Of a DNA stretch of 44,509 nucleotides, positions 26,897 to 39,747 are shown one piece after another (within the stretch, counting starts at the first letter, position 1; the number at the start of each line of letters is the position of its first letter). The DNA lies in sequence record OQ442786. One strand, 5' to 3'. The notes beneath the pieces are model-generated. The model was not told the origin of the DNA, did no database searches, and worked only from the letters and a program-made list of their open reading frames with translations. A program made the translations under genes and the position numbers. Origin of the DNA: Escherichia phage JSSK01.

Positions 26897-26920
26897 AAGG
26901 CCCCAAACGGGGCCTTTTCT
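26897..26920. terminator. bidirectional terminator (AGGCCCC-AAAC-GGGGCCT, TTTTCT)
   Basis: between convergent tailspike and minus-strand replication genes. Confidence 0.7.
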
Positions 26921-27058
26921 CTACTCTTCCGATAACTTCTCCAGTACAAACGCCAGTTGCGCATTAGCGGCGTCTCTCTGTTGCCGTAGTCGCAGAACCT
27001 CCTCTTCGAGTTCCTTGATACGTTTTTGCAATGCCGGAATCGGGGCTATGATGTTCAT
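26921..27058 (-). CDS. hypothetical small coiled-coil protein (45 aa)
   Basis: not in track; ATGA coupling with Toprim gene stop; ends at terminator. Confidence 0.25.
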   Translation of the reverse strand: MNIIAPIPALQKRIKELEEEVLRLRQQRDAANAQLAFVLEKLSEE

Positions 27059-27570
27059 CTGGTAAATTTCCTCGCAAGATACGTTATTTCTTCTTCACAA
27101 AGTTCATCAAGGTCGTTAGATACAAATCCTCTGGTGAATGTTTTGCTGAACTTTAATCCAGCTTTATCATTGTCGCCAGCGCACACCCAGTCATACGGCA
27201 AAAGTGACATTTGCTGCCGTAGGTCTGTTGATATATTTGACCCCAGTGCGCTTACAGCATTGAACCCGCAATTCATCAAGGCTACGGCTTTGAATATGCT
27301 TTCGGTAACAAATACCACCCCGCTTTCCGGCAAATACTCAAGCCCCCATAAACACGGCCTTGTTGTTCTGGTAAAGTACCGCGCGTCTTTAGGGTTTTTA
27401 CAGTTCTTTTCGGCATGTGGTTTGTAATGCTGGTATCCGCGAAGCCTACCGTCAAACCCCCACAGGTAAAACGTAGCTACTCCAGGGGCTAAGACTACCC
27501 GGAGACGGTCGGCGTCAAACCCACGCGCCAGCAGATGCGCCTTAAGTAGTAACTCCTCACAATCCATCAT
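27055..27570 (-). CDS. Toprim-domain protein (DnaG-like primase core or nuclease)
   Basis: VFVTESIFKA (conserved Glu) and CAGDNDKAG (DxD) in Toprim-like order. Confidence 0.5.
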   Translation of the reverse strand: MMDCEELLLKAHLLARGFDADRLRVVLAPGVATFYLWGFDGRLRGYQHYKPHAEKNCKNPKDARYFTRTTRPCLWGLEYLPESGVVFVTESIFKAVALMNCGFNAVSALGSNISTDLRQQMSLLPYDWVCAGDNDKAGLKFSKTFTRGFVSNDLDELCEEEITYLARKFTR

Positions 27571-28991
27571 TTCTTACCTCGTCTCTTCATGTAATTAAGC
27601 AATTCTTCCTGTACTGATTTCTTCTCGTCTGTACGAGCGGCGACAACCTCGTCAAGAGTGTCTTTAGCAACGATGTGGTAGAGGAACACCGGGCGCTCGT
27701 GCCCTGCCTGCTTCTGGCGGACAGGGCCTATACGCTCAACCACCTGCAAATAGTGCTCAAGGTTCCAACCTTGTGAAATAAACGCCAGATGGTGACCGCC
27801 GTCCTGTAAATTCAAACCATGACCGGCTGACGCAGGGTGTACGCACAAGATTTCGATTTCACCTCGGTTCCACGCTTCCATCTGCTTATTACCCTTAGCA
27901 CCTTTGGCAAATGCCTGTGCCTGCGGGAATCGCTTAAGGATGCGCTCCAGTTCGTGCTTGAACTGATAGGCTACAAGCAACGGCGCACCCTGTAACTCCT
28001 CAACAATGGACTCAAGCGCATCAAGTTTAGTGTCGTGCACTTTCTCCCATTCTTTGGTTGCTTCGCCATCTGGTCCCGATACATACACGGCACCAGAAGC
28101 AATCTGCAGGCACTTCGACGTCTTCGCTGCCGCGTTAGCCGCTTCAACTTCTCCGCTCTCCAGTTCCGCGAATAACTTTTCCTCCATATCTATGTACGCC
28201 TGACGCGCTTTCTTCGGCAGGTCGATTTCAACCGGTACAATAATCGGCGCTTCACACCCGAACCACTCGGCGGCGTCAATCGTGAGGCTAATATCCTTCA
28301 TCTTCTGGTGAATTTCACTATCCGCGCCAGGGCGCGCATGATACTCCCGCGCCATAGCCGATTTGCCTTTCTGCACCGAGTTAAACCAGCGGTCGGTGAA
28401 TGCGGTGTATGAAGACCCCAGGCGCTCGCCAGCGTCGATAAACCAGTTCTGGCCCCACAAATCCTTGAGGCCGTTAGGTGATGGTGTACCTGTAAGGTTA
28501 ATGAAACGCTTAACCTTACCGAACGCCACTTTGCTTAGCGCCTTCGCCCGCTTGCTTCCGCCAGAACGGCTGCGGAAAGATTTAAGCTTCGTGCTTTCAT
28601 CGGCAACGATAACAGTAAAAGGCCAGTCGTCTTTTCCGTAGTAGTCAATCAGCCACTCAATAACTTCGTAGTTTGTGCAAACCACGTTAGCATCAGACTC
28701 CAGCGCCGCGATGCGGCGCTTCTCCGAACCAGTTGCATCGACTACACTCAGGCAAGGAAAGTTCCATTTCTCTTGTTCTGCGGGCCACGTGCCTGACGCA
28801 ACACGTAACGGGGCGAGGATTAACACGCGGTCGCCGTCATTAAGTTGGCCGTTGCGGAACAGTCGGTTTAATGTCCACAGTACGCTGCCAGTCTTCCCGG
28901 CACCCATGCTTGCCCAAATATTACAGCGATGGTGCCGCAACATGAACGAAGTCATGAGCTTCTGGTACTCGCGCCTTTGAAACTTAGACAT
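27567..28991 (-). CDS. SNF2/DEAD-like superfamily 2 helicase
   Basis: start reassigned to ATG 28991 (MSKFQ, GAGG SD); Walker A GAGKTGS, DEST box (VIVADEST), helicase C-terminal QVVERIGPVRQ. Confidence 0.85.
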   Translation of the reverse strand: MSKFQRREYQKLMTSFMLRHHRCNIWASMGAGKTGSVLWTLNRLFRNGQLNDGDRVLILAPLRVASGTWPAEQEKWNFPCLSVVDATGSEKRRIAALESDANVVCTNYEVIEWLIDYYGKDDWPFTVIVADESTKLKSFRSRSGGSKRAKALSKVAFGKVKRFINLTGTPSPNGLKDLWGQNWFIDAGERLGSSYTAFTDRWFNSVQKGKSAMAREYHARPGADSEIHQKMKDISLTIDAAEWFGCEAPIIVPVEIDLPKKARQAYIDMEEKLFAELESGEVEAANAAAKTSKCLQIASGAVYVSGPDGEATKEWEKVHDTKLDALESIVEELQGAPLLVAYQFKHELERILKRFPQAQAFAKGAKGNKQMEAWNRGEIEILCVHPASAGHGLNLQDGGHHLAFISQGWNLEHYLQVVERIGPVRQKQAGHERPVFLYHIVAKDTLDEVVAARTDEKKSVQEELLNYMKRRGKK

Positions 28992-29667
28992 GATTAGCCT
29001 CGTAAACTGCTTTCGCAAACCCTCTCGGAGTAAGGCTGCGGATTGTCTTTGTCCGCACTGATTTACCGCCAAGTTTGTTGTGCTGGTCGGAGTACCCATC
29101 AACAACGGCAACACATGATTTAACCGGCATAACAAAACCGTTACCCGCCCAAATACATGTCTTCTTAGGGTACGCGTCCCGTGGTTTTATGTATTCAGGG
29201 AACATTGGGTGTGTGTCGTTTTCCGGTAGATAGCCGCCGTATTCGTAGGGATTGAACGCGTAGTCGGGCCTACGCCATAAAGACGAAAGAACGCTAACAG
29301 GGTTCTCAATCATATACGGTACTTTGTACTTTTTAGCCAGACGCGCTGCCACTTTGCATGTAATCACAGCCTCTACCTGAAACGTTGGGTTCTTCTTACG
29401 CTTCGTTTCGAAATGCGCCGCGCCACTAACGGCTAAATCTGTGCAAGGAGGGAACGCAAAAATAATATCCGGCGAAACCTCGAAGTCGAACTTATTATCA
29501 ATCCACGCGTTTATATAGTGGATGTTCTCGTGTTCAACCTTTGCACCCAATCGTGCGTAGTCGCCGTGGTCAGCGCCATCGTAGTTGAAACAGTAGCAAG
29601 TATGGCCTGCTTCTGCCCACGGTTGGGCCATAAGGCCCGAACCGTCAAACAATGACCAAACAATCAT
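28984..29667 (-). CDS. DNA (cytosine-5)-methyltransferase-like protein (compact, atypical)
   Basis: motif I LFDGSG, motif IV PPCT (Cys ~75), motif VI ENP (~121) with spacing similar to C5-MTases; only 227 aa. Confidence 0.55.
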   Translation of the reverse strand: MIVWSLFDGSGLMAQPWAEAGHTCYCFNYDGADHGDYARLGAKVEHENIHYINAWIDNKFDFEVSPDIIFAFPPCTDLAVSGAAHFETKRKKNPTFQVEAVITCKVAARLAKKYKVPYMIENPVSVLSSLWRRPDYAFNPYEYGGYLPENDTHPMFPEYIKPRDAYPKKTCIWAGNGFVMPVKSCVAVVDGYSDQHNKLGGKSVRTKTIRSLTPRGFAKAVYEANHV

Positions 29668-29855
29668 TTCGCCACCAGAACTAACTCTTTACGCCCGAAC
29701 GCCGTAACGTTACCAGTTACATCTTCAATAACCAGTTTACCGTTCGACTCGACGAACACCGTATCAACGGCAACAGGGCGACGGGTCTTAACGTTGAAAA
29801 TCATGTCGCCCGGTACGATGTCGCGTGCTGGTTTGCGGTCATATTCGTGTTTCAT
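29664..29855 (-). CDS. hypothetical protein (63 aa)
   Basis: track ORF, ATGA-coupled to methyltransferase gene; downstream of conserved promoter cassette. Confidence 0.45.
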   Translation of the reverse strand: MKHEYDRKPARDIVPGDMIFNVKTRRPVAVDTVFVESNGKLVIEDVTGNVTAFGRKELVLVAK

Positions 29856-29885
29856 TTCTCAATTCCTTATATTGTTGGTGTGTGA

Positions 29886-30173
29886 CTAACTATAATAGCT
29901 CGCTATTAGGGTGTCAACCTGTTTAAACGAACCGACGACAAAAACATTCGCACCACGTTTACGCATCCGCTCGTGCTCGCGTAACTGGTGCGGGTCAGGC
30001 TTCGTGTTTTCGTCTTTCTTAACCTCGACGAACCAGACGATGCCGCCTGGGAGAATTGCCAGCAGGTCGGGAGCACCCGAACGTCCTTCGTAGGAGAGCT
30101 TACGAACGAGGCCCCCCAGGGCCTCGAATCGGTCTTTTGCGTATTTCTGTATTTTGCCCTCAGGAGTACTCAT
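29886..30173 (-). CDS. VRR-NUC domain nuclease
   Basis: GAPDLLAILPGGIVWFVEVKK matches the VRR-NUC signature (PD...EVK). Confidence 0.65.
   Translation of the reverse strand: MSTPEGKIQKYAKDRFEALGGLVRKLSYEGRSGAPDLLAILPGGIVWFVEVKKDENTKPDPHQLREHERMRKRGANVFVVGSFKQVDTLIASYYS
29889..29917 (-). promoter_or_regulatory. replication-module promoter cassette copy 1 (TTGACA-17-TATAGT)
   Basis: plus-strand text AACTATAATAGC...CTATT...GTGTCAAC; three near-identical copies. Confidence 0.55.
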
Positions 30174-30254
30174 CTATACACCCCTCACGTTTCGTGTGCT
30201 CAATCCCGCAGCGCGGACAGATTCGACAGTCTTCTTCATAGAACCAGTAGATTT

Positions 30255-30386
30255 TCATTCCAGCACCCATAGATAAATTGCGATGAACATTCCCAATATG
30301 GCAACCATCATTCCGTATTGGCCCTCGTGACAGTAGACACCGGCGGCGAATCCCGCCAGTAACGCGATAATCAGTTTACTTAGCAT
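30255..30386 (-). CDS. hypothetical small membrane peptide (43 aa)
   Basis: not in track; overlaps 3' end of polymerase gene; hydrophobic. Confidence 0.25.
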   Translation of the reverse strand: MLSKLIIALLAGFAAGVYCHEGQYGMMVAILGMFIAIYLWVLE

Positions 30387-32547
30387 AACGTTTTAACTCC
30401 TGACCTTCCGCTACAAGAGGGAACCCTTCGGCCCATTCTGGTAATTCGCACATCAACCGCTCAAGCTCTGCGACATTGTATTCTGGTAAATCCGGTGTCT
30501 CGCAGATAATTTCATCGTGAACATGGAGCACAATCGGGTAGCCGTTTGCCTCTACGTTCAGCAGCGCGTTAGCCAGCAAATCACGGCACAGCGCCTGAGT
30601 GCAGTTTTCCACCAGTTTACCAGAGTAGGTGTACTGGAAGCCCCACTGACGGGTTAACTGGTTCTCCCCCTGGTACTTGATGCGCACGTTAGTAGACACT
30701 TTTCCATCTTCGTCTGTCTCTTTCGACACGCTTAACCCGACACCTGGATAAGACATAACGCGGCCCGACGGCAACGTCATGCGCAACCACCAACCGGCGA
30801 CTTTGTTGCCGTTGTTGTCTGTCTCTACGTTGCGCGAAAACTTAACGCCGCGGGGACCTGCGGTGAACTCTTTACCGGGATTACGGATTGCTGCCATAGC
30901 TGCGTCTTCAATATCGCGCCAGAATTGGACTATTGCAGGATTAGCTTCCCGGTACATGCGCTTTAAAGCGTCACAGGTGCGCCAAACTTTCTTATCAAGG
31001 ATATATGAGGGTCGGTCATCTTTTTCACCAGGACGTGGTGGTCGCTTGGCTTCCTGAATACGCGCCCATTCGTATCCGCGTGCGGTAGCGGCCCAAATAT
31101 GGTCCGGGAATGTACCGTCTAAAGTGTTAGTCATGTCATTCAAATCAAGACCTAAGTTTTTAGCAAACGTGACGAAAGCACCGACGCCCCCCGCGTAGCC
31201 GAGTCCCAGAACCATTGCTTTGGCTATTTGTCTTTGGTCCTTTGTTACGGCTTCATATGCAACATTGAACACCGTTGATGCGAGTTTCTTATACACATCA
31301 ACCCCGTTTACAAATACTTCGATTAAATCGTCTTCACCCGCCAGCCACGCAAGACCGCGGCCTTCGACGTTAGAGTAATCGGCAACGACAAACTTATGCC
31401 CTGCTTCCGGTATGATGCAGCTGCGCACCGTCGATGCCGTTAGTTTGGCTACATCGAAACGGCGGTGCGCACGGCCTTTAAGTAACGCAGAAATGCCTTT
31501 ATCCAGTTCGTCGTCGTGATAGTACCCGCGAGCCAGGTTCTGCGGCTGGAAGCCTTTACCCGCAAATCGTAACGTACGTTTAGCTCCACCATACTGGATG
31601 CAACCGCGACGTCGGTCGTCCGACGAGCGGCCTAACAGCAGCGGGTTATATTTCGTGGACGCTGTTGACGCGGCCCCGAGGCGCATTTCGATAATCATCC
31701 GGGCGTCGTCCGGTAAATCATCATCTGCCAACAGGTCGTTAAGCGTCGACTTCTGTGCATTGTGTATGCGGTGCGCGGGCGCAAGTTCACGCAGAATCGG
31801 AAGGAAGTCTTTACCGGTAAGCGAGCCGCCGTATTTACGTTGAGCTTCTTCCTGTAACTGTGCCTTGTGCTTCTCTACGGCTTCAATCGCGGCTTCCGCC
31901 AGTGCGACGTCAACCTTAAATCCGCGGTCGTTGATTAACTGGTCAAGTTCCAGTACACGGTCTTCGAACTCGGAGTTACCCCAACGCGGCAGCTTATGGA
32001 AGACTTCACGCATCGCAGTGATGTCGCTCACGGCGTACCTGATGAACATCGCCCACTCGTCAGGGTGAGTTTCTGCGGTGTAGCGGCGGATTTTGTAGTT
32101 CTTCGGCGTCGGTTTAGAGAAACGCTTAATCAGAGCCTTGCCGCGTTTATCTTTCGCGTTGTCTGCAGACACGCCCAGCACTTCGCACAGCGCATCAAGA
32201 GAACCCGGCAGCGCGTGACGGAACGCCCAAATCATAGTATCAATGGTGTTACTTACCGGAATATCAAAGTCCCAGCAGTGTTTCATGATTAGGCGATCGA
32301 AAAGTCCACCGTTGTGCCACACCATCCTGATGCGGCTGTTGGGCTTAACAAGGCGGCGCAGTGCGCGGTGTAAATCCCCCGGCATGTCGCTGCCGTCGGT
32401 GCAATCCCATACCTGCACAGGCTCATCGTCAAAAGCATAGGTACAGATTAGCACTTCGGTTGACGGGTGTTCGGCGTAAGCGTAAGAACCGACTTTCTTC
32501 AAATCGGCTTCTGAGAATGTTTCAAAGTCTAAGAACAGGTAACTCAT
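30376..32547 (-). CDS. family A DNA polymerase with 3'-5' exonuclease domain
   Basis: Exo I motif LFLDFETFS; motif A DYSNVEGR; motif B RQIAKAMVLGLGYAGG; motif C HVHDE. Confidence 0.9.
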   Translation of the reverse strand: MSYLFLDFETFSEADLKKVGSYAYAEHPSTEVLICTYAFDDEPVQVWDCTDGSDMPGDLHRALRRLVKPNSRIRMVWHNGGLFDRLIMKHCWDFDIPVSNTIDTMIWAFRHALPGSLDALCEVLGVSADNAKDKRGKALIKRFSKPTPKNYKIRRYTAETHPDEWAMFIRYAVSDITAMREVFHKLPRWGNSEFEDRVLELDQLINDRGFKVDVALAEAAIEAVEKHKAQLQEEAQRKYGGSLTGKDFLPILRELAPAHRIHNAQKSTLNDLLADDDLPDDARMIIEMRLGAASTASTKYNPLLLGRSSDDRRRGCIQYGGAKRTLRFAGKGFQPQNLARGYYHDDELDKGISALLKGRAHRRFDVAKLTASTVRSCIIPEAGHKFVVADYSNVEGRGLAWLAGEDDLIEVFVNGVDVYKKLASTVFNVAYEAVTKDQRQIAKAMVLGLGYAGGVGAFVTFAKNLGLDLNDMTNTLDGTFPDHIWAATARGYEWARIQEAKRPPRPGEKDDRPSYILDKKVWRTCDALKRMYREANPAIVQFWRDIEDAAMAAIRNPGKEFTAGPRGVKFSRNVETDNNGNKVAGWWLRMTLPSGRVMSYPGVGLSVSKETDEDGKVSTNVRIKYQGENQLTRQWGFQYTYSGKLVENCTQALCRDLLANALLNVEANGYPIVLHVHDEIICETPDLPEYNVAELERLMCELPEWAEGFPLVAEGQELKRYAK

Positions 32548-32564
32548 TATTTTTGACCCCTAGT

Positions 32565-32587
32565 AAAAAGGCCCAATGAAGGGCCTT
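32565..32587 (-). terminator. attenuator hairpin between SSB and polymerase genes
   Basis: GGCCC stem with T-run on the minus strand. Confidence 0.4.
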
Positions 32588-32606
32588 AGTTAAATTGATT
32601 CAGATA

Positions 32607-33233
32607 TTAGCGGCGGCGACGTTCGCGGCGCGGTGCTTCATCTTCTTCGTCGTCTTCCAGGTCATTGACGCTCGCAGCGACTTTAGAACCGCCGAACGCT
32701 TTGCCTTCACCGACGTACTTAATCGCCAGCAGGTTAACCCCGAGAACTTTATATTTCTGGCTGAACCAGATTTCGACGCTTACGTTAGCGACACAGCCAC
32801 TGTAAACCTGTTCGCCTTCAATCTGTTCGCCGTCTACGTTGAAGTCCTGCTCCACCTGAGTCTCACCTTTTTTAGAGGTTACAATCAGCGGCTGCTTCTG
32901 CGCCTTCGCTTTGAAGTAGAAGCCTTCTGGGAAGTCTTCAAACGGGTTATCACGCTCAGCAATGTCTTTAATCGCGCATTTATCCATGTGCTTACCTTCG
33001 CCGTAGTTGGACTTCATCCATTTCTCGGCAGCAGCTGCGCCTAACGCTTCCTCAACCACAGCGTAAACAGTGTCGTAGAGTGCATCGATTTGAGCGTGGT
33101 CAGGCGGCAGGATGATAGTCGCGCTATACTGGCCTTTAGTGATGGAGCCATCATCGTTTTCACGGTCTTTTTCTCGTTCGAATACGTTAACCCATGCAGT
33201 GTTTACTTTACGCAGATTCAGTTTAATTCCCAT
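32607..33233 (-). CDS. single-stranded DNA-binding protein (gp2.5-like / DUF2815-like, putative)
   Basis: 208 aa, acidic DLEDDEEDE C-terminal tail; between PD-(D/E)XK nuclease and DNA polymerase. Confidence 0.45.
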   Translation of the reverse strand: MGIKLNLRKVNTAWVNVFEREKDRENDDGSITKGQYSATIILPPDHAQIDALYDTVYAVVEEALGAAAAEKWMKSNYGEGKHMDKCAIKDIAERDNPFEDFPEGFYFKAKAQKQPLIVTSKKGETQVEQDFNVDGEQIEGEQVYSGCVANVSVEIWFSQKYKVLGVNLLAIKYVGEGKAFGGSKVAASVNDLEDDEEDEAPRRERRRR

Positions 33234-33287
33234 CTTAATTTCTCGCTTTTCAGTTTACTCCTGGAAGCTGCCAGGCCAGTGATTAGA

Positions 33288-33316
33288 ACTATAATAGCTA
33301 ACTATTCAGGTGTCAA
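33288..33316 (-). promoter_or_regulatory. replication-module promoter cassette copy 2 (TTGACA-17-TATAGT)
   Basis: plus-strand text GAACTATAATAGCTAACTATTCAGGTGTCAACAC. Confidence 0.55.
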
Positions 33317-33320
33317 CACT

Positions 33321-34562
33321 TTATTCTAAATCTTTTTCACTAACCCGATTCCACTCAGGACGTTTGTCGTTTGCCGTTGCGACACATGGCGCTCCTGGCT
33401 TACGGGTAATGAAGTCTTTCAGTTCATCTTCCGGTATGACTTTAACAGCTTCGGTTGGCGTCATGAGCACTTGCTTCATTAGCGCTATGCCATACTTGCC
33501 AGCAACTTTCTCCGCGTCTTTCCACGCACGATTACCTGGGCGTCCTTCTACCAGTTTGTACCCCGGCACTTTCTTACCGGAATGCAGCGCGGCAGCCATA
33601 GCTTTCTCAACCTTGTCGATGTGCTGGCGCAACAACGGCAACTTCTCATACTCAGCTACAAGTTGCTCCGTCGTCAGTTCCAGCGCAAAGTCGTCCTCCA
33701 GTTCTTCCGCCAGTACAGCGTTAACGGTTTTTGTACGCGCGGCGCATTGTTCAGAGAACCGACACCACTGACAACCATCGACAGACGGCTTAAAGTCAGA
33801 TGCTTTCAGGTTCTTCTTGCCGCGGGAATAGGCATCGAGCGCTAACAGTGCTCGTTTTTGTGCAAACTTAGCGAACAGTTCAAGGCCTTCAACCGAGATG
33901 TCCCACTCCGACGCACCGCCAGCGCACGGCTGGAAAATTACCAGACGAACCACGGTGATGTTATAACGCCTCTTGAGTCGGCGATAAACACCGAGAGCGT
34001 AAAGCATAAGCTGCTTGTTTTCTTTCGCTTCGACACGATGCCGTCCTGTTTTCAGGTCGCCGATAATGAGCATATGCTCGTCAGTGTTCGCCAGTTCCTG
34101 AACGGCAACAAGGTCAGCGGTTCCGAACGTCTCAACGCCTTCGTAACCCGGATGCAATACCTCAGTAAGATTTACCCGCATTTCCAGCTTGGCGTAAGTC
34201 GCTACGTCGATAATCGCTTTGCAGTAGTCGGTGTACTTGCGCACCTGCTCAATCATGTCAGCCGTAATCAGTACCGCGCCTTTCATCTGGCTAATTAGCG
34301 CCTTAATCTGGCCTTTACCCTCGTCCAGCACGTAAGCGCCGACTTCACGCTCCAACGGCAACGCAGTGCCGCGTATATAGGCGTTGAGATGGACCTCAGC
34401 TATGGTGTGCATGGCGGTTCCTGATACAGCGGCTTTACCCGACGTGTTAGGGATATCTTTTTCACACGCCAGCGACGCAGCGCATGACAGCCACTTTTTA
34501 GCGCCTGACGGTGACAGTAAGGCGTGTACATCATTATTGCCGCCTCGTTCTTTTAGTTTCAT
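33321..34562 (-). CDS. PD-(D/E)XK exonuclease (DUF2800 / Cas4-RecB-like) with C-terminal Cys cluster
   Basis: start reassigned to ATG 34562 (MKLKE); N-terminal LLSPSGAKKWLSCAASL typical of DUF2800; C-terminal CQWCRFSEQC. Confidence 0.6.
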   Translation of the reverse strand: MKLKERGGNNDVHALLSPSGAKKWLSCAASLACEKDIPNTSGKAAVSGTAMHTIAEVHLNAYIRGTALPLEREVGAYVLDEGKGQIKALISQMKGAVLITADMIEQVRKYTDYCKAIIDVATYAKLEMRVNLTEVLHPGYEGVETFGTADLVAVQELANTDEHMLIIGDLKTGRHRVEAKENKQLMLYALGVYRRLKRRYNITVVRLVIFQPCAGGASEWDISVEGLELFAKFAQKRALLALDAYSRGKKNLKASDFKPSVDGCQWCRFSEQCAARTKTVNAVLAEELEDDFALELTTEQLVAEYEKLPLLRQHIDKVEKAMAAALHSGKKVPGYKLVEGRPGNRAWKDAEKVAGKYGIALMKQVLMTPTEAVKVIPEDELKDFITRKPGAPCVATANDKRPEWNRVSEKDLE

Positions 34563-34859
34563 GCTCTTAAACTCCCACCCCATTTAACTTTACGCGTTTT
34601 GCGCTTGTAGGCGCACGTGTCACCGCTACGGTTGAATATAATCAGCCAAGTCGAGTTGCTTACTCGAAAAGGCTGGTGACATTTAATAAAGAGAAGTCGC
34701 GCTTTACGGTTCGTCATTCTGCAATCTCCACAATACGCGCATTAGTGAAACTGCGTGCGAAGCCGAATGTGTAGAAGATGTACTGGGCTTCGTCCAAACG
34801 TGCGTAGCGGCTGTGTTCCTGGTCTTTACCGTCTATTTCTACAATTATCGCGTACCTTG

Positions 34860-35132
34860 TCATACCCTGCTCTCCCACTGGTCGATTAAATGTCGCGTCT
34901 TATGTTCGCAGTGCATAGCCCACCCATACATCGACTCAAAGACATAAAAGTCTGGCTTGGCGAATGTCGTGCGCTTAATCTGTGACACGTGACGACCTAT
35001 ATCTTTAGGCCGCGGTACTTTGCCTAAGTAAGCCATCTCTTCCATCTGGTGCGCCCCGGACGGCGCACGCAACAGCCATAGTGCCTCTGTGTTGTCCCGC
35101 CTGTCGACGGCGCGGTAGAGTTGGTAAATCAT
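34860..35132 (-). CDS. hypothetical protein (90 aa)
   Basis: track ORF in coupled minus-strand gene chain. Confidence 0.45.
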   Translation of the reverse strand: MIYQLYRAVDRRDNTEALWLLRAPSGAHQMEEMAYLGKVPRPKDIGRHVSQIKRTTFAKPDFYVFESMYGWAMHCEHKTRHLIDQWESRV

Positions 35133-35332
35133 TTCCTTACCCTCGCAGAATTAATCCACGTGAAAACATCGTCAATAGAAAAATCGCCGTCGAAAACCTT
35201 CTCAACTTTGCTGGCCTTCTTGACCGTCGTAGGGTGTTTGTTGTCTACCGCCTGAAATACGTAAACCAAATCATTTTCAGCGACAACGCTGCCAGAAATC
35301 ATAAGACCACTTTTCTTAGCTAAAATAGCCAT
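35129..35332 (-). CDS. hypothetical protein (67 aa)
   Basis: track ORF, ATGA-coupled. Confidence 0.45.
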   Translation of the reverse strand: MAILAKKSGLMISGSVVAENDLVYVFQAVDNKHPTTVKKASKVEKVFDGDFSIDDVFTWINSARVRK

Positions 35333-35343
35333 AATTCCGACCC

Positions 35344-35559
35344 TCAGTAGTACGGCGCAAATTCACCTTTAACGGCGGGACGAATTGTATGTACCGCCGT
35401 TTTATCGGTTGGGTACATGTCCGCCCAATATTCGCCAGCGGCATAGTCAAGAGTCCCGCGCCACGCACCATTCAAAACAAAGAATTGCTGACAACCAACA
35501 TATGAGTCACTTATTTCTACAACTATTTGTTCGTTTATTACTTTGTATACGTTACTCAT
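35344..35559 (-). CDS. hypothetical protein (71 aa)
   Basis: track ORF. Confidence 0.45.
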   Translation of the reverse strand: MSNVYKVINEQIVVEISDSYVGCQQFFVLNGAWRGTLDYAAGEYWADMYPTDKTAVHTIRPAVKGEFAPYY

Positions 35560-35602
35560 TATTACGACCCTCAGTTAAAGCGGCCCGAAGGCCGCCAGAT
35601 AA

Positions 35603-36127
35603 TTATTCTTCTTCGAAATACTTGTTCTTGATTGCTGTCAAGCGTTCCAGGTATTCAGCCAGGTCTTCGTCTTTAATCGCTGCAATCTTCATTTTCTTAC
35701 CAGTGAACTCTTCCAGCAGTTCATCAGAATCGTCGCACGCGGCATCGCTAGGACCTTCATTAATTGCATCGTCGATGGCCTGAATCTGGTCACGAAGAGA
35801 CTGGTAATCGACCTCTTCTTTCTCTTCTTCCGGTTCTGGCGTAGGCTCCTCTACTTTAGGTTTACGCGGCTTGCGTTTCGGCTTCTCTTCTTCTGCTGGT
35901 TTGGTGTCAACGACGTCTTCACCTTCGACCTCAATGTCTCTTACCGCGTCGAACGCTTCTTTAACCACATGAGCTACCGTCTTTTCTTCGACCGTGATTT
36001 CTTTTGTTGCAACAGTAGGCTTTATTGTTGCGGATTCAGCAATGACTACTTGTTTCGAACTATTCGCGGCAATCAGTTCATGTGCAACTACGAAACGTTC
36101 CAGCAATACTAAGAATTTCTCTAACAT
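35603..36127 (-). CDS. highly acidic protein (174 aa), unknown function
   Basis: long Glu/Asp-rich stretches (EVEGEDVVD..., PEPEEEKEEVD...). Confidence 0.5.
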   Translation of the reverse strand: MLEKFLVLLERFVVAHELIAANSSKQVVIAESATIKPTVATKEITVEEKTVAHVVKEAFDAVRDIEVEGEDVVDTKPAEEEKPKRKPRKPKVEEPTPEPEEEKEEVDYQSLRDQIQAIDDAINEGPSDAACDDSDELLEEFTGKKMKIAAIKDEDLAEYLERLTAIKNKYFEEE

Positions 36128-36151
36128 TTGTTTCTCTCCTGTTTGTGTAAG

Positions 36152-36379
36152 TTACTCACCGTCGCCTTCAGTAAGGCTATCGTCTATTAGTTCAAATTTA
36201 CCGTTTGAGTGTTGAATAGCTTCTTGCCCGCAATGGTCACAGACAACAAGTTTATCGAACCCATCAAACTCATCCCCTACTACGCAAGAAAGTACAAATT
36301 TATGTTTTGTGCACACTTCTTGCGGAGCGCCGAAAATTGCTCGAAAACCTTTAGCTATGGCCCCAGTGATTGTGTTCAT
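36152..36379 (-). CDS. zinc-ribbon-like small protein
   Basis: CxxC pairs (CTKH...C and CDHCG). Confidence 0.5.
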   Translation of the reverse strand: MNTITGAIAKGFRAIFGAPQEVCTKHKFVLSCVVGDEFDGFDKLVVCDHCGQEAIQHSNGKFELIDDSLTEGDGE

Positions 36380-36407
36380 ATCTGCCCCTCTCGTTTGGTA
36401 TGGGCTA

Positions 36408-36436
36408 ACTATAATAGCGAACTATTCACATGTCAA
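36408..36436 (-). promoter_or_regulatory. replication-module promoter cassette copy 3 (TTGACA-17-TATAGT)
   Basis: plus-strand text TAACTATAATAGCGAACTATTCACATGTCAATGG. Confidence 0.55.
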
Positions 36437-36500
36437 TGGGCTTTTCTAAAATAATTAATATGGTACTATTCACATATCAACTGACTAAGGAGTAACTGAC

Positions 36501-36716
36501 ATGCAACCATCTGAACTAGGCATCCGTGTAGAGCAACGCCGTAAAGAACTCGGTATCTCCCAGCGCCGTCTGGCTGTTCTGGCCGGCGTTTCCCAGGGCG
36601 CGATTAACCAGCTTGCACTCGGGGTAACTCAGGACGTACGCCCGGCAACGCTGTTTAAACTGGCGGAAGTGCTGGAAGTAGACGCCAAGTGGCTGGCGCT
36701 AGGTGAAGGGGCGTAA
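36501..36716 (+). CDS. XRE-family HTH transcriptional regulator (Cro/CI-like)
   Basis: ISQRRLAVLAGVSQGAINQL is a classic HTH_XRE signature; AAGGAG SD; stop codon lies in terminator loop. Confidence 0.7.
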   Translation: MQPSELGIRVEQRRKELGISQRRLAVLAGVSQGAINQLALGVTQDVRPATLFKLAEVLEVDAKWLALGEGA

Positions 36717-36731
36717 CGCCCCTTTCTTTTT
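36708..36731 (+). terminator. rho-independent terminator (GGGGCG-TAA-CGCCCC, TTTCTTTTT)
   Basis: read from sequence. Confidence 0.6.
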
Positions 36732-36733
36732 AC

Positions 36734-38956
36734 CTATTCCAAATCCTCCTCTGTCACCACCAGCATCTCATTTGGTTCGTATAGTGTCTTCGGCCTTAAT
36801 CTATCACCTATTCTTTCGGGTATACGATATGTTCTCGGTACTACTTCGCCGTTAGCATCGCAACCAAGCATTAGTTCTCCATCTTTCAACATTTTATCAA
36901 GATGGGTGTTAGTCACAGAGAAGTCACCGGAACGAGCCACTATCTGCTGCTGAGTAAAACCGCGACCTGTGTCATCTGACTGTTGCAGGTCTTCCAGTGC
37001 CGAAAGTATTGACTCCTTCCTTACTTCATCCCTGCCGCGTTTAACTTCTTCCTTTACTTTTTGCTTACCTTCTTTCGTCAACCCTTCTTCCCGCTCTTTC
37101 TCCTCGTCAGTTTTGAACGGCTCGAAACCCCACGGCATCAACACAAGCGCCTTGTGTGGTTCAGGCAGGTCCAGGTTTACGATTGTGCCGTATTCCTCTG
37201 TGCTACCCAGGAACTCAACCGCTCGGTATTCTTTAGGCGGCGGCGCTTCACGGAACTGTACCGACTCCAGCACCATGCCAACCGTCTTCTGCTGAGGCCC
37301 GTGCTTGAATTTCGAGTGATATACGTTTATCTGACGGTCGGTTGCACGTTCGATTGTCAGTTCCACGTCAACACCCGCATACAGCGCCCCACTGCCGCGT
37401 GCTTTCTTTCCACCCTTCGGCGTATGGTGGACAACGCCTACTGCGGCTTTAGTTGCATCGCGTACTTCTTTCAGAATGGCGATAACTTTACCCATGCCGA
37501 TTGCTGTTGATGAACTGTTCTCGTCGAACTTATCAATCGTCAGTGCCAGGGTCTGGTTAAGGGTGTCGAACGCAACCATGCCAATTGGCTCGTCGCCAGC
37601 AGTTTCGCGCATTAACTTAATCAGGCTTTTAAGTTTGCCGACTTCGCCCATATCGATGACGTGTACATAATCTTTACCTTCCCCGCCATATTTAGCCGCT
37701 AGTGCATCAATACGGGTGCGTGTAGCTGCGCCACCCTCACCATCAATATAGAAATGGTGGCAACGCTGGGTATCCGCCCCCGCAAACCTGTACCCGGCGG
37801 CGCTGAGGCACATCATCCCCAGCGTATAGAACGATTTGTACGTGCCAGATTCCCCGACGATATCCCAGATACAATCCGACGGCATGTACCCCTCAACGAC
37901 GAAATCAGCCTTTACCGGCTCCGGTAACTCGTCCTCCTCTGAGTCCTCGTCGTCTTCCAGGTCGTCGAGGCTGCAAGTTACTGGGTCCTCGTTCTCTGTG
38001 CGGTGTAGTTCTTCAATCTCTTCTTCCGGTAAATCAGGCAGAGCCGCACGAATGCTGTTAATGCTGATAGGTTGCTTATCTATGTTAAGCTCGTCGGGTA
38101 GGCCACACATACGCAGGGCCAAATGCTGCCTACGGTTAAGCTCGGTGCAAGCGCCGTTGTTTGTATGCTGGCAGACAAAGCGCACTTCTTTACCGTCGAG
38201 CATTATGCTGGTGGAGCCCTTGCCTGTATGCAGATGTTCGTTAGGGCATGGCACTTCGTACCCGCGCCCGGAAGATAAAGCGTCAAGGCCAAGCTCGGCT
38301 TCGCAGAAGTGTGCTATATCCGCGTTAAGCCCATGCTCATCAGCGGCAAGTGTTTTAGCCTCACGCTTACGCAACCCCATCTCTTCGGCTTTCTTGATGT
38401 ACCGCTCAGCACGGATAACACGCCCTTCTGTAACCGTTATCTTCGACTCTTTATGCGGCAGGTAGATAAGGCGGTTGCCGTCTTCTGTGCAGTGGTCACG
38501 CAACGCTTCGTCTATTTCTAACTCTGCACAAATAGCACGTTGCACCATCCACGCGTCGTTAGAGTTAAACGGCGTGCGAGCTGGAACCAGAACGCGGAAA
38601 GCGTAATCTCCGTTTTTACATGCGTGCTGATGCGATGCCGTTGTGTGCAGAATATTGAAGAACGGCGCGTTCTTGAATTTGCGTGTCAGGTCGCGGTACT
38701 GAGTACGGTTGAGATGGTCGAAATCGAACTTAACCACACTGTCTTCCAGGATAGCGTTTTTACGGCGACCACCAACAGGCGCAATAGCTTTCTGTTTAAT
38801 CTTGGCAGCGTCGTACTCTTCCTTAGTCCATGACGGGTCCACGGATAAACGCTTCGATGTATCGCAGACATACTCGACAAACTGCTCCAGCGGCATTTCA
38901 CGCGCTACAGGGTTTTTATCGAATGTGTTACGCAGCGTTGCAAAAACAATATTCAT
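36734..38956 (-). CDS. DNA primase/helicase (AEP-type primase-like N-terminal region + RecA-like ATPase)
   Basis: Walker A GESGTYKS, Walker B-like MVAFDTLNQ, sensor VVHHTPKGG; N-terminal DxD (FDFDHL) and His-rich block suggestive of AEP primase. Confidence 0.75.
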   Translation of the reverse strand: MNIVFATLRNTFDKNPVAREMPLEQFVEYVCDTSKRLSVDPSWTKEEYDAAKIKQKAIAPVGGRRKNAILEDSVVKFDFDHLNRTQYRDLTRKFKNAPFFNILHTTASHQHACKNGDYAFRVLVPARTPFNSNDAWMVQRAICAELEIDEALRDHCTEDGNRLIYLPHKESKITVTEGRVIRAERYIKKAEEMGLRKREAKTLAADEHGLNADIAHFCEAELGLDALSSGRGYEVPCPNEHLHTGKGSTSIMLDGKEVRFVCQHTNNGACTELNRRQHLALRMCGLPDELNIDKQPISINSIRAALPDLPEEEIEELHRTENEDPVTCSLDDLEDDEDSEEDELPEPVKADFVVEGYMPSDCIWDIVGESGTYKSFYTLGMMCLSAAGYRFAGADTQRCHHFYIDGEGGAATRTRIDALAAKYGGEGKDYVHVIDMGEVGKLKSLIKLMRETAGDEPIGMVAFDTLNQTLALTIDKFDENSSSTAIGMGKVIAILKEVRDATKAAVGVVHHTPKGGKKARGSGALYAGVDVELTIERATDRQINVYHSKFKHGPQQKTVGMVLESVQFREAPPPKEYRAVEFLGSTEEYGTIVNLDLPEPHKALVLMPWGFEPFKTDEEKEREEGLTKEGKQKVKEEVKRGRDEVRKESILSALEDLQQSDDTGRGFTQQQIVARSGDFSVTNTHLDKMLKDGELMLGCDANGEVVPRTYRIPERIGDRLRPKTLYEPNEMLVVTEEDLE

Positions 38957-39150
38957 TTCTTTTTCTCCGCACGTTCTAAGGCTTCCTGCATACGGCGCAT
39001 TGCGCGGTTCATCTTTACCGGCGCGAAGAAATCGGCGCCGTGTTTCTGTCGGCGTAGCTGTGGAACTATTAACTTTGTCATTGTATAATCCTTATGCTTA
39101 CTTTGATGGTTTGTACTTTAGCCCCGACGTTCTAGCGTTGGGGTTTCTTT

Positions 39151-39441
39151 TTACCGTTTAGCCAACCCTTCCAGCAAATTTTTATACTCTTCAAAATATT
39201 CCTCGACCAAATCATCGCCGAAATAGAAGTCGATATACTCGAGATTATCTCTTACGTTAAGCGATGCCGACATGGTGCTTAGTTGGCGTAAGCTAATTAG
39301 CTTCATTTCTGTTTCTACGCAGAAAGGCCGGTAGGTATCAAGATGGCAAGAGATATTGAAGCATAAAGCGAACTCTCCTGCCACGGAGTGAACCATATAC
39401 ACTTCGTTTTCTGCTTTATTGTGGAAAATTACGCCTTTCAT
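39151..39441 (-). CDS. hypothetical protein (96 aa)
   Basis: track ORF, ATGA-coupled to upstream HTH gene. Confidence 0.45.
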   Translation of the reverse strand: MKGVIFHNKAENEVYMVHSVAGEFALCFNISCHLDTYRPFCVETEMKLISLRQLSTMSASLNVRDNLEYIDFYFGDDLVEEYFEEYKNLLEGLAKR

Positions 39442-39620
39442 TTCACGTTCTCCTTAATCCATGCTTCGACTTTATTACGGTCAAATGTTCCCGGTAAACG
39501 GCGGCCCATAATCTTAATACAGCAGTCAGGGAATTTGCCGCTGCGCAACCAGTTATTAATTGTCTGACGTGTCACCCCGATACGTTCAGCTACTTCATTC
39601 TGCGTCATATAATGCGACAT
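39438..39620 (-). CDS. small HTH DNA-binding protein (AlpA/excisionase-like fold)
   Basis: start reassigned to ATG 39620 (AGGAGAT SD); MTQNEVAERIGVTRQTINNWLRSGKFP is HTH-like; first gene of minus-strand operon. Confidence 0.55.
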   Translation of the reverse strand: MSHYMTQNEVAERIGVTRQTINNWLRSGKFPDCCIKIMGRRLPGTFDRNKVEAWIKENVK

Positions 39621-39651
39621 TTTTATATCTCCTGTTTGTTTGGTGAAACTG

Positions 39652-39680
39652 AGTATAGGATAGCGGGAATGTAAAAGCAA
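39652..39680 (-). promoter_or_regulatory. candidate leftward promoter TTGCTT-17-TATACT
   Basis: read on minus strand upstream of HTH gene. Confidence 0.4.
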
Positions 39681-39717
39681 CCAATCTCTGTAATATTTAA
39701 TCTTTACAAAAATGTTA

Positions 39718-39747
39718 TTGAAAGTTCTTGACACATGTTTGTATAAT
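39718..39747 (+). promoter_or_regulatory. candidate rightward promoter TTGAAA-18-TATAAT
   Basis: perfect -10 hexamer; adjacent TTGACA is only 8 bp from the -10. Confidence 0.4.

What the first reader, a model, noticed from the sequence alone, without database searches (positions are those of the whole stretch)
27055..38956. Apparently redundant priming functions: a standalone Toprim protein plus a primase-helicase
The 740-aa protein joins a primase-like N-terminal region (DxD and His-rich blocks) to a RecA-like ATPase, while a separate 171-aa Toprim-only protein is encoded 9 kb away next to the SNF2-like helicase. Either one is the true primase and the other a nuclease, or they prime different strands or origins.
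Basis: partly seen in the sequence, partly recalled or inferred. Interest (0 to 1): 0.35.

Follow-up and report, generated by a model that had tools for sequence, protein, structure and literature searches.

The report
Anti-retron Toprim protein plus replicative primase-helicase
This Kagunavirus phage carries two primase-like genes, but only the large one looks like its replication primase; the small one is a relative of phage T5's "Rad" protein, an optional gene reported to disarm bacterial retron defences, so the apparent redundancy is mostly explained by existing knowledge.

Summary
ORF 27055-27570(-) encodes a 171-aa Toprim protein and ORF 36734-38956(-) a 740-aa primase-helicase, 9.2 kb apart in one minus-strand replication operon of a Kagunavirus (identical to Escherichia phage JSSK01).

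The 740-aa protein has an AEP (PrimPol/RepB'-like) fold with invariant DxD and a third Asp. This is followed by an invariant Cys/His zinc ribbon, a RepA-like AAA_25 ATPase and a C-terminal tail. This protein type is present in about 425 Guernseyvirinae-like records and, without any Toprim partner, in Dhillonvirus.

Three points argue that it is an accessory gene:
- It is present in only 64 of about 460 related phage records.
- It sits in a swappable gene slot.
- It is 48% identical to T5.076, which matches "Rad" (retron anti-defense) of a 2023 preprint at all five mutated residues.

T5 carries a complete DnaG-type primase elsewhere in its genome.

Best reading: the AEP-helicase is the replicative primase, and the Toprim protein is a Rad-family anti-retron factor. 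This is a new member of a known kind, of low to moderate interest. The Rad mechanism itself rests on one preprint.

The parts
27055..27570 (-). 171-aa Rad-like protein: a DnaG-type RNA-polymerase core (N-terminal subdomain, aa 1-84, plus Toprim, aa 85-171) with no zinc-binding domain and no helicase-binding domain
26921..27058 (-). 45-aa coiled-coil ORF, translationally coupled (ATGA) to the stop of the Toprim gene. It is the last gene of the operon and its function is unknown.
   Evidence: Conserved at 94% in K1ind2, which lacks the Toprim gene. Labelled 'exonuclease subunit' in relatives. Pfam gives only coiled-coil-like weak hits.
26897..26916 (-). GC-rich hairpin (aaggcccc-gttt-ggggcctt) followed by a T-rich run: a likely terminator between the convergent tailspike gene and the replication operon
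   Evidence: Read directly from the sequence. Not tested further.
27567..28991 (-). SNF2-family helicase immediately upstream of the Toprim gene. The mechanical ORF runs to 29135, but homologues are 474 aa.
   Evidence: Pfam SNF2-rel_dom 1.7e-12 and phrog_62 2.4e-169. K1ind2 homologue of 474 aa, 91% nucleotide identity.
36734..38956 (-). 740-aa primase-helicase: AEP domain, zinc ribbon, acidic linker, RepA-like ATPase and C-terminal tail
   Evidence: phrog_3228 'replicative helicase-primase', full length, 1062 bits. Identical to the Escherichia phage JSSK01 protein.
38357..38956 (-). AEP (archaeo-eukaryotic primase / PrimPol-like) domain, aa 1 to about 200, with D78-x-D80, S108-H109, R121, D154 and R162
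38102..38284 (-). Zinc-ribbon module, aa 225-285 (C237 P N x x x H243 ... C262 x H264 ... C270), followed by the LNRxQHLAL helix
   Evidence: C237, P238, N239, H243, C262, H264 and C270 are invariant in alignment A2. Metal binding is inferred, not tested.
37409..37924 (-). RepA/DnaB-like RecA-fold ATPase (AAA_25), aa 345-516, with Walker A GESGTYKS
   Evidence: Pfam AAA_25, 2.2e-17. 77% identical to K1ind2 across aa 309-740.
36737..37039 (-). C-terminal region, aa 640-740. A possible DNA-binding (winged-helix-like) tail by analogy only.
   Evidence: No Pfam or PDB sequence match. The analogy is to the AEP-PriCT/ZnBD-helicase-WH architecture of PrimPol-PV1 families (PMC5862659). Not tested.

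Best explanation
The two 'primases' are not redundant.

The 740-aa protein is the phage's replicative primase-helicase. An N-terminal AEP-type catalytic domain with its own zinc ribbon makes primers, and the fused RepA-like hexameric-type ATPase unwinds DNA. This is the arrangement known for AEP-helicase fusions of plasmids and phages.

The 171-aa protein is a member of the Rad (retron anti-defense) family, first described in T5-like phages. It keeps the fold and most active-site residues of a DnaG/T7-type primase catalytic core, but lacks the zinc-binding domain that DnaG-type primases need for template-directed initiation, and lacks any helicase-docking domain. It is an optional cargo gene placed at the 3' end of the replication operon. 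Its likely job is to neutralise host retron immunity early in infection by acting on the retron's msr-msd RNA or msDNA through its Toprim metal centre (E90, D133, D135).

Shown here: the folds, the conserved motifs, the homology to T5.076/Rad, the patchy cassette-like distribution, and the existence of AEP-helicase phages without the Toprim gene.

Inferred: primase activity of the AEP domain, and anti-retron activity of this particular homologue and its chemistry.
For: Toprim protein:
- There is no zinc ribbon and no C-terminal domain. TIGR01391 dnaG scores 14.7 bits against a cut-off of 283.6.
- It is 48% identical over 166 aa (E 9e-39) to T5.076, but shows no significant similarity to T5's own primase T5.121 (E 0.18).
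- T5.076 carries R13, P33, I88, D135 and E156, exactly the five residues mutated in Rad in bioRxiv 10.1101/2023.03.15.532788.
- That preprint reports that Rad blocks retrons Ec67, Ec78, Ec83, Ec48 and Se72 and lowers msr-msd RNA and msDNA. It also reports that 8-kb deletion mutants lacking the region are viable.
- T5 has a complete DnaG-type primase (Zn ribbon + DNAG_N + Toprim) next to its DnaB-like helicase, far from Rad.
- The gene is present in 64 records, against about 460 records sharing the replication module and about 425 with the same helicase C-terminus.
- K1ind2 has 91-94% identical flanks but a different 61-aa ORF in the slot.
- Rad is already used as an anti-retron category in surveys.

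740-aa protein:
- AEP fold by two methods.
- Invariant DxD, Asp and zinc ligands, and an AAA_25 domain.
- Dhillonvirus Gluttony has a 38%-identical orthologue in the same replication module and no hit to the Toprim HMM anywhere in its genome.
- The architecture matches published AEP-ZnBD-RepA-WH families.
Against: - Rad's function rests on one preprint, and the peer-reviewed version (PMC11555353) no longer mentions Rad.
- 'Degrades ncRNA' was inferred there from lower RNA levels, not from a nuclease assay.
- 48% identity does not guarantee the same target, and the preprint found that some homologues protected only moderately.
- One of the five Rad residues differs here (P33 corresponds to Y35).
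- The fold is that of a polymerase core with conserved K55 and R64-Y65 (equivalent to the DnaG K229-Y230 region), so RNA synthesis cannot be excluded.
- The gene is translationally coupled to the SNF2 helicase inside the replication operon, a context that would also suit a replication role.
Confidence: 0.62

Rival explanations
1. True division of labour. The AEP-helicase primes at the origin or on the leading strand, and the small DnaG-like core is a second, lagging-strand primase that boosts replication in the phages that carry it.
For: - Primase-core fold with conserved E90, D133, D135, D153, K55 and R64-Y65.
- The gene lies in the replication operon, ATGA-coupled to the SNF2 helicase.
- It is annotated 'DNA primase' by PHROG-based pipelines.
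Against: - There is no zinc-binding domain or helicase-docking domain. From established knowledge of E. coli DnaG and T7 gp4, the zinc-binding domain is needed for template recognition and de novo synthesis.
- The motif-IV Asp (E. coli D269) is Lys in 15 of 18 family members.
- The gene is absent from about 86% of close relatives with near-identical replication genes.
- The T5 homologue lies outside the replication module and within a region whose deletion is tolerated.
Confidence: 0.13
2. Split DnaG-type primase. The zinc ribbon in the 740-aa protein serves in trans as the missing zinc-binding domain for the 171-aa catalytic core, as the T7 zinc-binding domain can act in trans.
For: - The zinc ribbon (C237/H243/C262/H264/C270) is invariant, and its CPxxH...FxC pattern superficially resembles CHC2 primase fingers.
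- The small protein lacks its own zinc-binding domain.
Against: - The zinc ribbon is equally conserved in Dhillonvirus and other orthologues that have no Toprim partner.
- AEP domains are commonly followed by a PriCT or Zn-binding module of their own (PMC5862659).
- The Toprim gene occurs with both AEP types A and B.
- No Pfam Zn_ribbon_DnaG hit was found.
Confidence: 0.04
3. An accessory counter-defence or host-takeover factor with a target other than retrons. Examples would be another nucleic-acid-based defence, or interference with host DnaG/DnaB or host RNA.
For: - Accessory, cassette-like distribution.
- The T5 homologue sits in an 'anti-defence island' holding several activities.
- Weak PADLOC similarity to an RT-associated DnaG-like protein of DRT systems (E 2.7e-4).
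- The Rad data are unreviewed.
Against: The only experimental data for the family point to retrons, with several homologues active. No evidence for another target was found.
Confidence: 0.17

Closest known systems
Rad (retron anti-defense), SP15 ORF75 / T5.076 of T5-like phages (Azam et al., bioRxiv 10.1101/2023.03.15.532788)
   Same: - Same size class (171 versus 172 aa).
- 48% identity over almost the full length.
- Same Toprim_2 hit and the same ESxFK variant of primase motif IV.
- Conserved R16, D135 and E156, equivalent to Rad residues R13, D135 and E156.
- Accessory gene status.
   Different: - Different phage family and genomic context: here it lies at the end of the replication operon next to an SNF2 helicase, whereas in T5 it lies in the tRNA-rich anti-defence island.
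- P33 of Rad corresponds to Y35 here.
- Activity of this homologue is untested.
DnaG / T7 gp4 / T4 gp61 primase RNA-polymerase domain
   Same: - N-terminal subdomain with a (K/R)Y motif.
- Toprim Glu and DxD.
   Different: - No CHC2 zinc ribbon and no helicase-binding or fused helicase domain.
- Lacks the extra helical subdomain of cellular DnaG.
- The motif-IV Asp is replaced by Lys.
- Fails the dnaG equivalog model.
AEP-helicase fusions of mobile elements (PrimPol-PV1 supergroup families; RSF1010 RepB'; cyanophage S-2L PrimPol)
   Same: - AEP fold with DxD and a third Asp.
- A downstream Zn-binding module.
- A RepA-family ATPase and a C-terminal tail.
   Different: - No Pfam or PDB sequence-level match to any named AEP family.
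- The N-terminal family is narrow: 14 representative clusters among 1.8 billion proteins.
- Which published PV1 family it belongs to, if any, was not determined.
- The motif-II His is variable.
Toprim ribonucleases and nucleases (RNase M5, OLD, PARIS AriB)
   Same: A Toprim metal centre, with a proposed RNA target for Rad.

Membership tests
Rad (retron anti-defense) family | Full-length sequence homology to SP15 ORF75 / T5 Rad | tested here: met
   48.2% identity over 166 aa, E 9e-39, to T5.076. The family HMM scores T5.076 at 181 bits. T5.076 was identified as Rad by an exact match of all five mutated residues.
Rad (retron anti-defense) family | Conservation of the residues whose mutation weakened Rad (R13, P33, I88, D135, E156) | tested here: inconclusive
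   The window protein has R16, Y35, V88, D135 and E156: three identical, one conservative change and one different. Most family members have Pro at the P33 position (12 of 18).
Rad (retron anti-defense) family | Neutralises retron defence and lowers msr-msd RNA and msDNA | not testable with these tools
   Requires plaque assays and RNA measurements. Reported only for the SP15, T5, Privateer, Shigella-phage and vB_Sen_I1 homologues.
Rad (retron anti-defense) family | Dispensable accessory gene | tested here: met
   Present in 64 of about 460 related records. Precise replacement by another small ORF in K1ind2.
DnaG-type (bacterial/T7-like) primase | CHC2-type zinc-binding domain | tested here: not met
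   No Zn_ribbon_DnaG hit and no conserved Cys/His cluster in the 171-aa protein or its 17 aligned homologues. T5.121 scored positive with the same tool.
DnaG-type (bacterial/T7-like) primase | RNA-polymerase domain: N-terminal subdomain plus Toprim fold | tested here: met
   [not shown]
DnaG-type (bacterial/T7-like) primase | Full acidic active-site set (ExxxD, DxD, D) | tested here: inconclusive
   E90, D133, D135 and D153 are conserved. The position aligned to E. coli D269 is K94 (K in 15 of 18 members, D in 3).
DnaG-type (bacterial/T7-like) primase | Helicase-interaction domain or fused helicase | tested here: not met
   The protein ends about 20 residues after the Toprim fold. dnaG equivalog model: 14.7 bits against a cut-off of 283.6.
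AEP (archaeo-eukaryotic primase / PrimPol) superfamily, helicase-fused | AEP catalytic fold | tested here: met
   [not shown]
AEP (archaeo-eukaryotic primase / PrimPol) superfamily, helicase-fused | Motif I DxD and motif III Asp | tested here: met
   D78, D80 and D154 are invariant in 11 sequences of 28-70% identity. Their assignment to motifs I and III comes from position in the model's strands and was not verified by superposition.
AEP (archaeo-eukaryotic primase / PrimPol) superfamily, helicase-fused | Motif II (sxH) histidine | tested here: inconclusive
   The window has S108-H109, but several orthologues have Asp there. H111 is mostly conserved, not fully.
AEP (archaeo-eukaryotic primase / PrimPol) superfamily, helicase-fused | Fused helicase-type P-loop ATPase | tested here: met
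   AAA_25, E 2.2e-17, residues 345-516.
AEP (archaeo-eukaryotic primase / PrimPol) superfamily, helicase-fused | Primer synthesis activity | not testable with these tools
   No biochemical data were found for this family.

The most novel reading that the evidence does not exclude
Rad-type proteins, including this one, may be zinc-finger-less DnaG RNA-polymerase cores that disarm retrons by primase-like chemistry and not by hydrolysis. For example, they could bind the single-stranded msd DNA or the msr-msd RNA in the template groove and synthesise or extend RNA on it, or block the 2'-OH priming guanosine. In Kagunavirus the same protein might then moonlight at the replication fork alongside the SNF2 helicase to which it is translationally coupled.
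Probability: 0.1. Interest if true: 0.7.

Novelty: new member of a known kind. Interest (0 to 1): 0.27.

Why it matters
The main practical value is for annotation. In dozens of Kagunavirus and Jerseyvirus genomes, this gene is labelled 'DNA primase' by PHROG-based pipelines. It is more likely an anti-retron accessory gene, and that affects predictions of host range for phages considered for therapy.

A smaller mechanistic point also follows. The only described anti-retron protein has the complete fold of a primase catalytic core, not that of a Toprim nuclease, and it has a Lys in place of one metal-binding Asp. This sharpens the question of how Rad acts.

The finding does not reveal a new replication strategy.

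Tried and rejected
- **Sequence searches of the 740-aa N-terminus.** Pfam at E up to 10, NCBIfam, and PDB with a single sequence and with a profile all gave nothing. Only structure prediction revealed the AEP fold.
- **Word-indexed homology search with the N-terminal 309 aa.** It returned just 2 fragments. The full-length search returned only homologues of at least 86% identity. The exhaustive representative search was needed to get diverse sequences.
- **Does the Toprim gene travel with one variant of the AEP domain?** This would have suggested a split enzyme. It was rejected: the Toprim gene is found with both type A and type B, and each type is also found without it.
- **Is the small ORF downstream of the Toprim gene a detached zinc finger?** It is a Cys-free coiled coil.
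- **Does Dhillonvirus Gluttony's own 171-aa ORF (955-1470) hide a divergent Toprim?** There was no HMM hit anywhere in that genome.
- **Follow-up work on Rad.** I found only citations of the preprint. The published version omits Rad.
- **afdb50 fold library.** It was unavailable.
Full report
**Identity of the window.** The 740-aa protein is 100% identical to the 'replicative helicase/primase' of Escherichia phage JSSK01, found on a contig of 44,509 bp, which is the window's length. The 12-kb region is 90-94% identical to many Kagunavirus genomes (Guernseyvirinae) and matches 460 phage records in all.

**The replication operon.** Bases 27055-39734 form one minus-strand operon. In order of transcription it encodes:
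- an HTH protein
- the 740-aa primase-helicase (36734-38956)
- small ORFs
- a DUF2800/PD-(D/E)XK exonuclease
- a gp2.5/Enc34-type SSB
- a family-A DNA polymerase
- a VRR-NUC-like protein
- a C5-methylase-like protein
- an SNF2 helicase
- the 171-aa Toprim protein (27055-27570)
- a 45-aa coiled-coil ORF

A hairpin follows, facing the convergent tailspike gene. The helicase/Toprim and Toprim/45-aa junctions are both ATGA overlaps.

**The 171-aa protein: fold.** Pfam sees only a borderline Toprim_2 match at residues 87-147. PHROGs places it in 'DNA primase' families. Homologues in the 5.8-billion-protein collection are few (22) and all 160-180 aa long.

The alignment shows more than a Toprim domain. 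The N-terminal half carries F..LW..G.L.GYQ.Y...K...P..RYFT, which resembles the DnaG motif II/III region. It is followed by the Toprim Glu (E90), DxD (D133/D135) and D153.

The protein is therefore a minimal DnaG/T7-type RNA-polymerase domain. It lacks three things:
- a zinc-binding domain (none detected, whereas the same tool finds one in T5.121)
- a helicase-binding domain
- the acidic residue aligned with E. coli DnaG D269, which is Lys in 15 of 18 family members

**The 171-aa protein: relatives and distribution.** tblastn finds close copies (at least 60% identity) in only 67 phage records, and megablast in 64. In the 60 megablast records listed, it lies over or beside a helicase gene. By comparison, about 460 records share the replication module and about 425 share the helicase C-terminus.

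In K1ind2 the flanks are 91-94% identical, but the 508-bp gene is replaced by a 178-bp segment with an unrelated 61-aa ORF. The gene occurs with either of two very different AEP N-terminal variants of the primase-helicase, and each variant also occurs without it.

More distant homologues (about 48% identity) are found in T5-like phages, Erwinia jumbo phages and others. In T5 the homologue is T5.076, which lies among the tRNA genes and far from the replication genes. T5 has a complete DnaG-type primase, T5.121 (Zn ribbon + DNAG_N + Toprim), next to its DnaB-like helicase D6. The window's protein shows no significant similarity to T5.121 (E 0.18), against E 9e-39 to T5.076.

**Link to Rad.** A 2023 preprint (Azam et al., bioRxiv 10.1101/2023.03.15.532788) describes 'Rad', ORF75 of the T5-like phage SP15. 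It is a small protein with 'primase/helicase and TOPRIM/RNase domain', encoded in the tRNA-rich 'anti-defence island'. The preprint reports the following:
- Rad lowered msr-msd RNA and msDNA, but not RT or effector transcripts.
- Mutations R13E, P33T, I88T, D135H and E156H weakened it.
- Phages with an 8-kb deletion of the island were viable.

T5.076 has exactly R, P, I, D and E at positions 13, 33, 88, 135 and 156, so it is Rad. The window's protein has R16, Y35, V88, D135 and E156 at the aligned positions.

Rad is already used as an 'anti-retron' category in genome surveys. Two caveats apply. The peer-reviewed version of the study (PMC11555353) no longer mentions Rad. I also found no later mechanistic work.

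**The 740-aa protein.** Pfam detects only AAA_25 (RepA-like RecA-fold ATPase) at residues 345-516. The N-terminal 343 residues have no Pfam, NCBIfam or PDB sequence match. They belong to a narrow family: 14 representative clusters among 1.84 billion proteins, nearly all 715-771 aa long and apparently sharing this architecture.

An 11-sequence alignment down to 28% identity shows two sets of invariant residues:
- D78 and D80 (DxD), T106, R121 and D154, with R162 and P167 nearly invariant
- a Cys/His cluster: C237, P238, N239, H243, C262, H264 and C270

The order AEP, Zn-binding module, RepA-type ATPase and C-terminal tail is the architecture described for several PrimPol-PV1 families of mobile elements (PMC5862659). 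Which of those families it belongs to was not determined.

Orthologues at 29-39% identity occur in Dhillonvirus, Cornellvirus-like and other small siphoviruses. The complete genome of Dhillonvirus Gluttony has the same replication module and no hit to the Toprim-family HMM. The AEP-helicase therefore evidently suffices as the primase in those phages.

**Conclusion.** The apparent redundancy resolves into one conserved replicative AEP primase-helicase plus one optional gene. That gene has the fold of a DnaG primase core but belongs to the Rad anti-retron family.

What remains open is Rad's chemistry. Half of the protein is the primase-specific N-terminal subdomain, with conserved basic and aromatic residues. 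A polymerase-like or template-binding mechanism is therefore as compatible with the structure as hydrolysis. The lack of a zinc-binding domain and the Asp-to-Lys change argue against ordinary primase function.

I rate the finding as a new member of a known kind, of low to moderate interest, with value mainly for annotation.

Noticed in passing
window 37930-38956 (aa 1 to about 343 of the 740-aa protein); compare L004:14129-15163 (K1ind2) and L005:39167-40200 (SS7): The AEP N-terminal domain is exchanged as a module within Guernseyvirinae. 'Type A' (this window, SHAK7858; 38% identical to Dhillonvirus) and 'type B' (K1ind2, WAO78-1, SS7) share only 22-24% identity. Residues from about 325 to 740 stay 77-94% identical, and the breakpoint is at the acidic linker.
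   Followed up: partly
window 27059-27566 versus L004:4172-4349: There is a variable gene slot between the SNF2 helicase stop and the 45-aa ORF. K1ind2 carries an unrelated 61-aa ORF (MKLNVGDEIYSV...) where this phage has the Rad-like gene, and the flanks are 91-94% identical. The function of the alternative ORF is unknown.
   Followed up: partly
window 26921-27058 (-): A 45-aa Cys-free coiled-coil ORF is ATGA-coupled to the Toprim stop. It is conserved even in phages lacking the Toprim gene and is labelled 'exonuclease subunit' in some records without visible basis.
   Followed up: partly
window 27567-29135 (-): The mechanical SNF2 helicase ORF (522 aa, TTG start) overlaps the methylase ORF by about 150 bp. 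Homologues are 465-474 aa, so the real start is probably near 28991.
   Followed up: partly
window 30376-32547 (-): The family-A DNA polymerase (723 aa) matches Pfam DNA_pol_A only over residues 371-468. It also hits phrog_93 'endonuclease' over residues 441-537. This may simply reflect divergence of the palm and fingers region.
   Followed up: no
window 36752-36817 (aa 714-735 of the 740-aa protein): A short stretch, ERIGDRLRPKTLYEPNEMLVVT, resembles the start of the NusG KOW region (E about 1). This is probably chance.
   Followed up: no
window 27055-27570 (-): There is a weak PADLOC match (E 2.7e-4) to 'RTasDnaG-like', a DnaG-like protein associated with defence reverse transcriptases. This is curious given the anti-retron link, but it covers only the Toprim core.
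   Followed up: no
L001 (OR594183.1): The record's taxonomy line says Autographiviridae/Kayfunavirus and its name says 'vB_EcoM'. Its replication region is nevertheless about 92% identical to this Kagunavirus, so the record is probably mislabelled.
   Followed up: no
L003:8986-9504 and L007:12145-13035 (phage T5): T5 also carries two DnaG-fold proteins: the complete primase T5.121 in the replication module, and the ZBD-less T5.076 (Rad) among the tRNA genes. The same apparent 'redundancy' therefore recurs in an unrelated phage family.
   Followed up: yes
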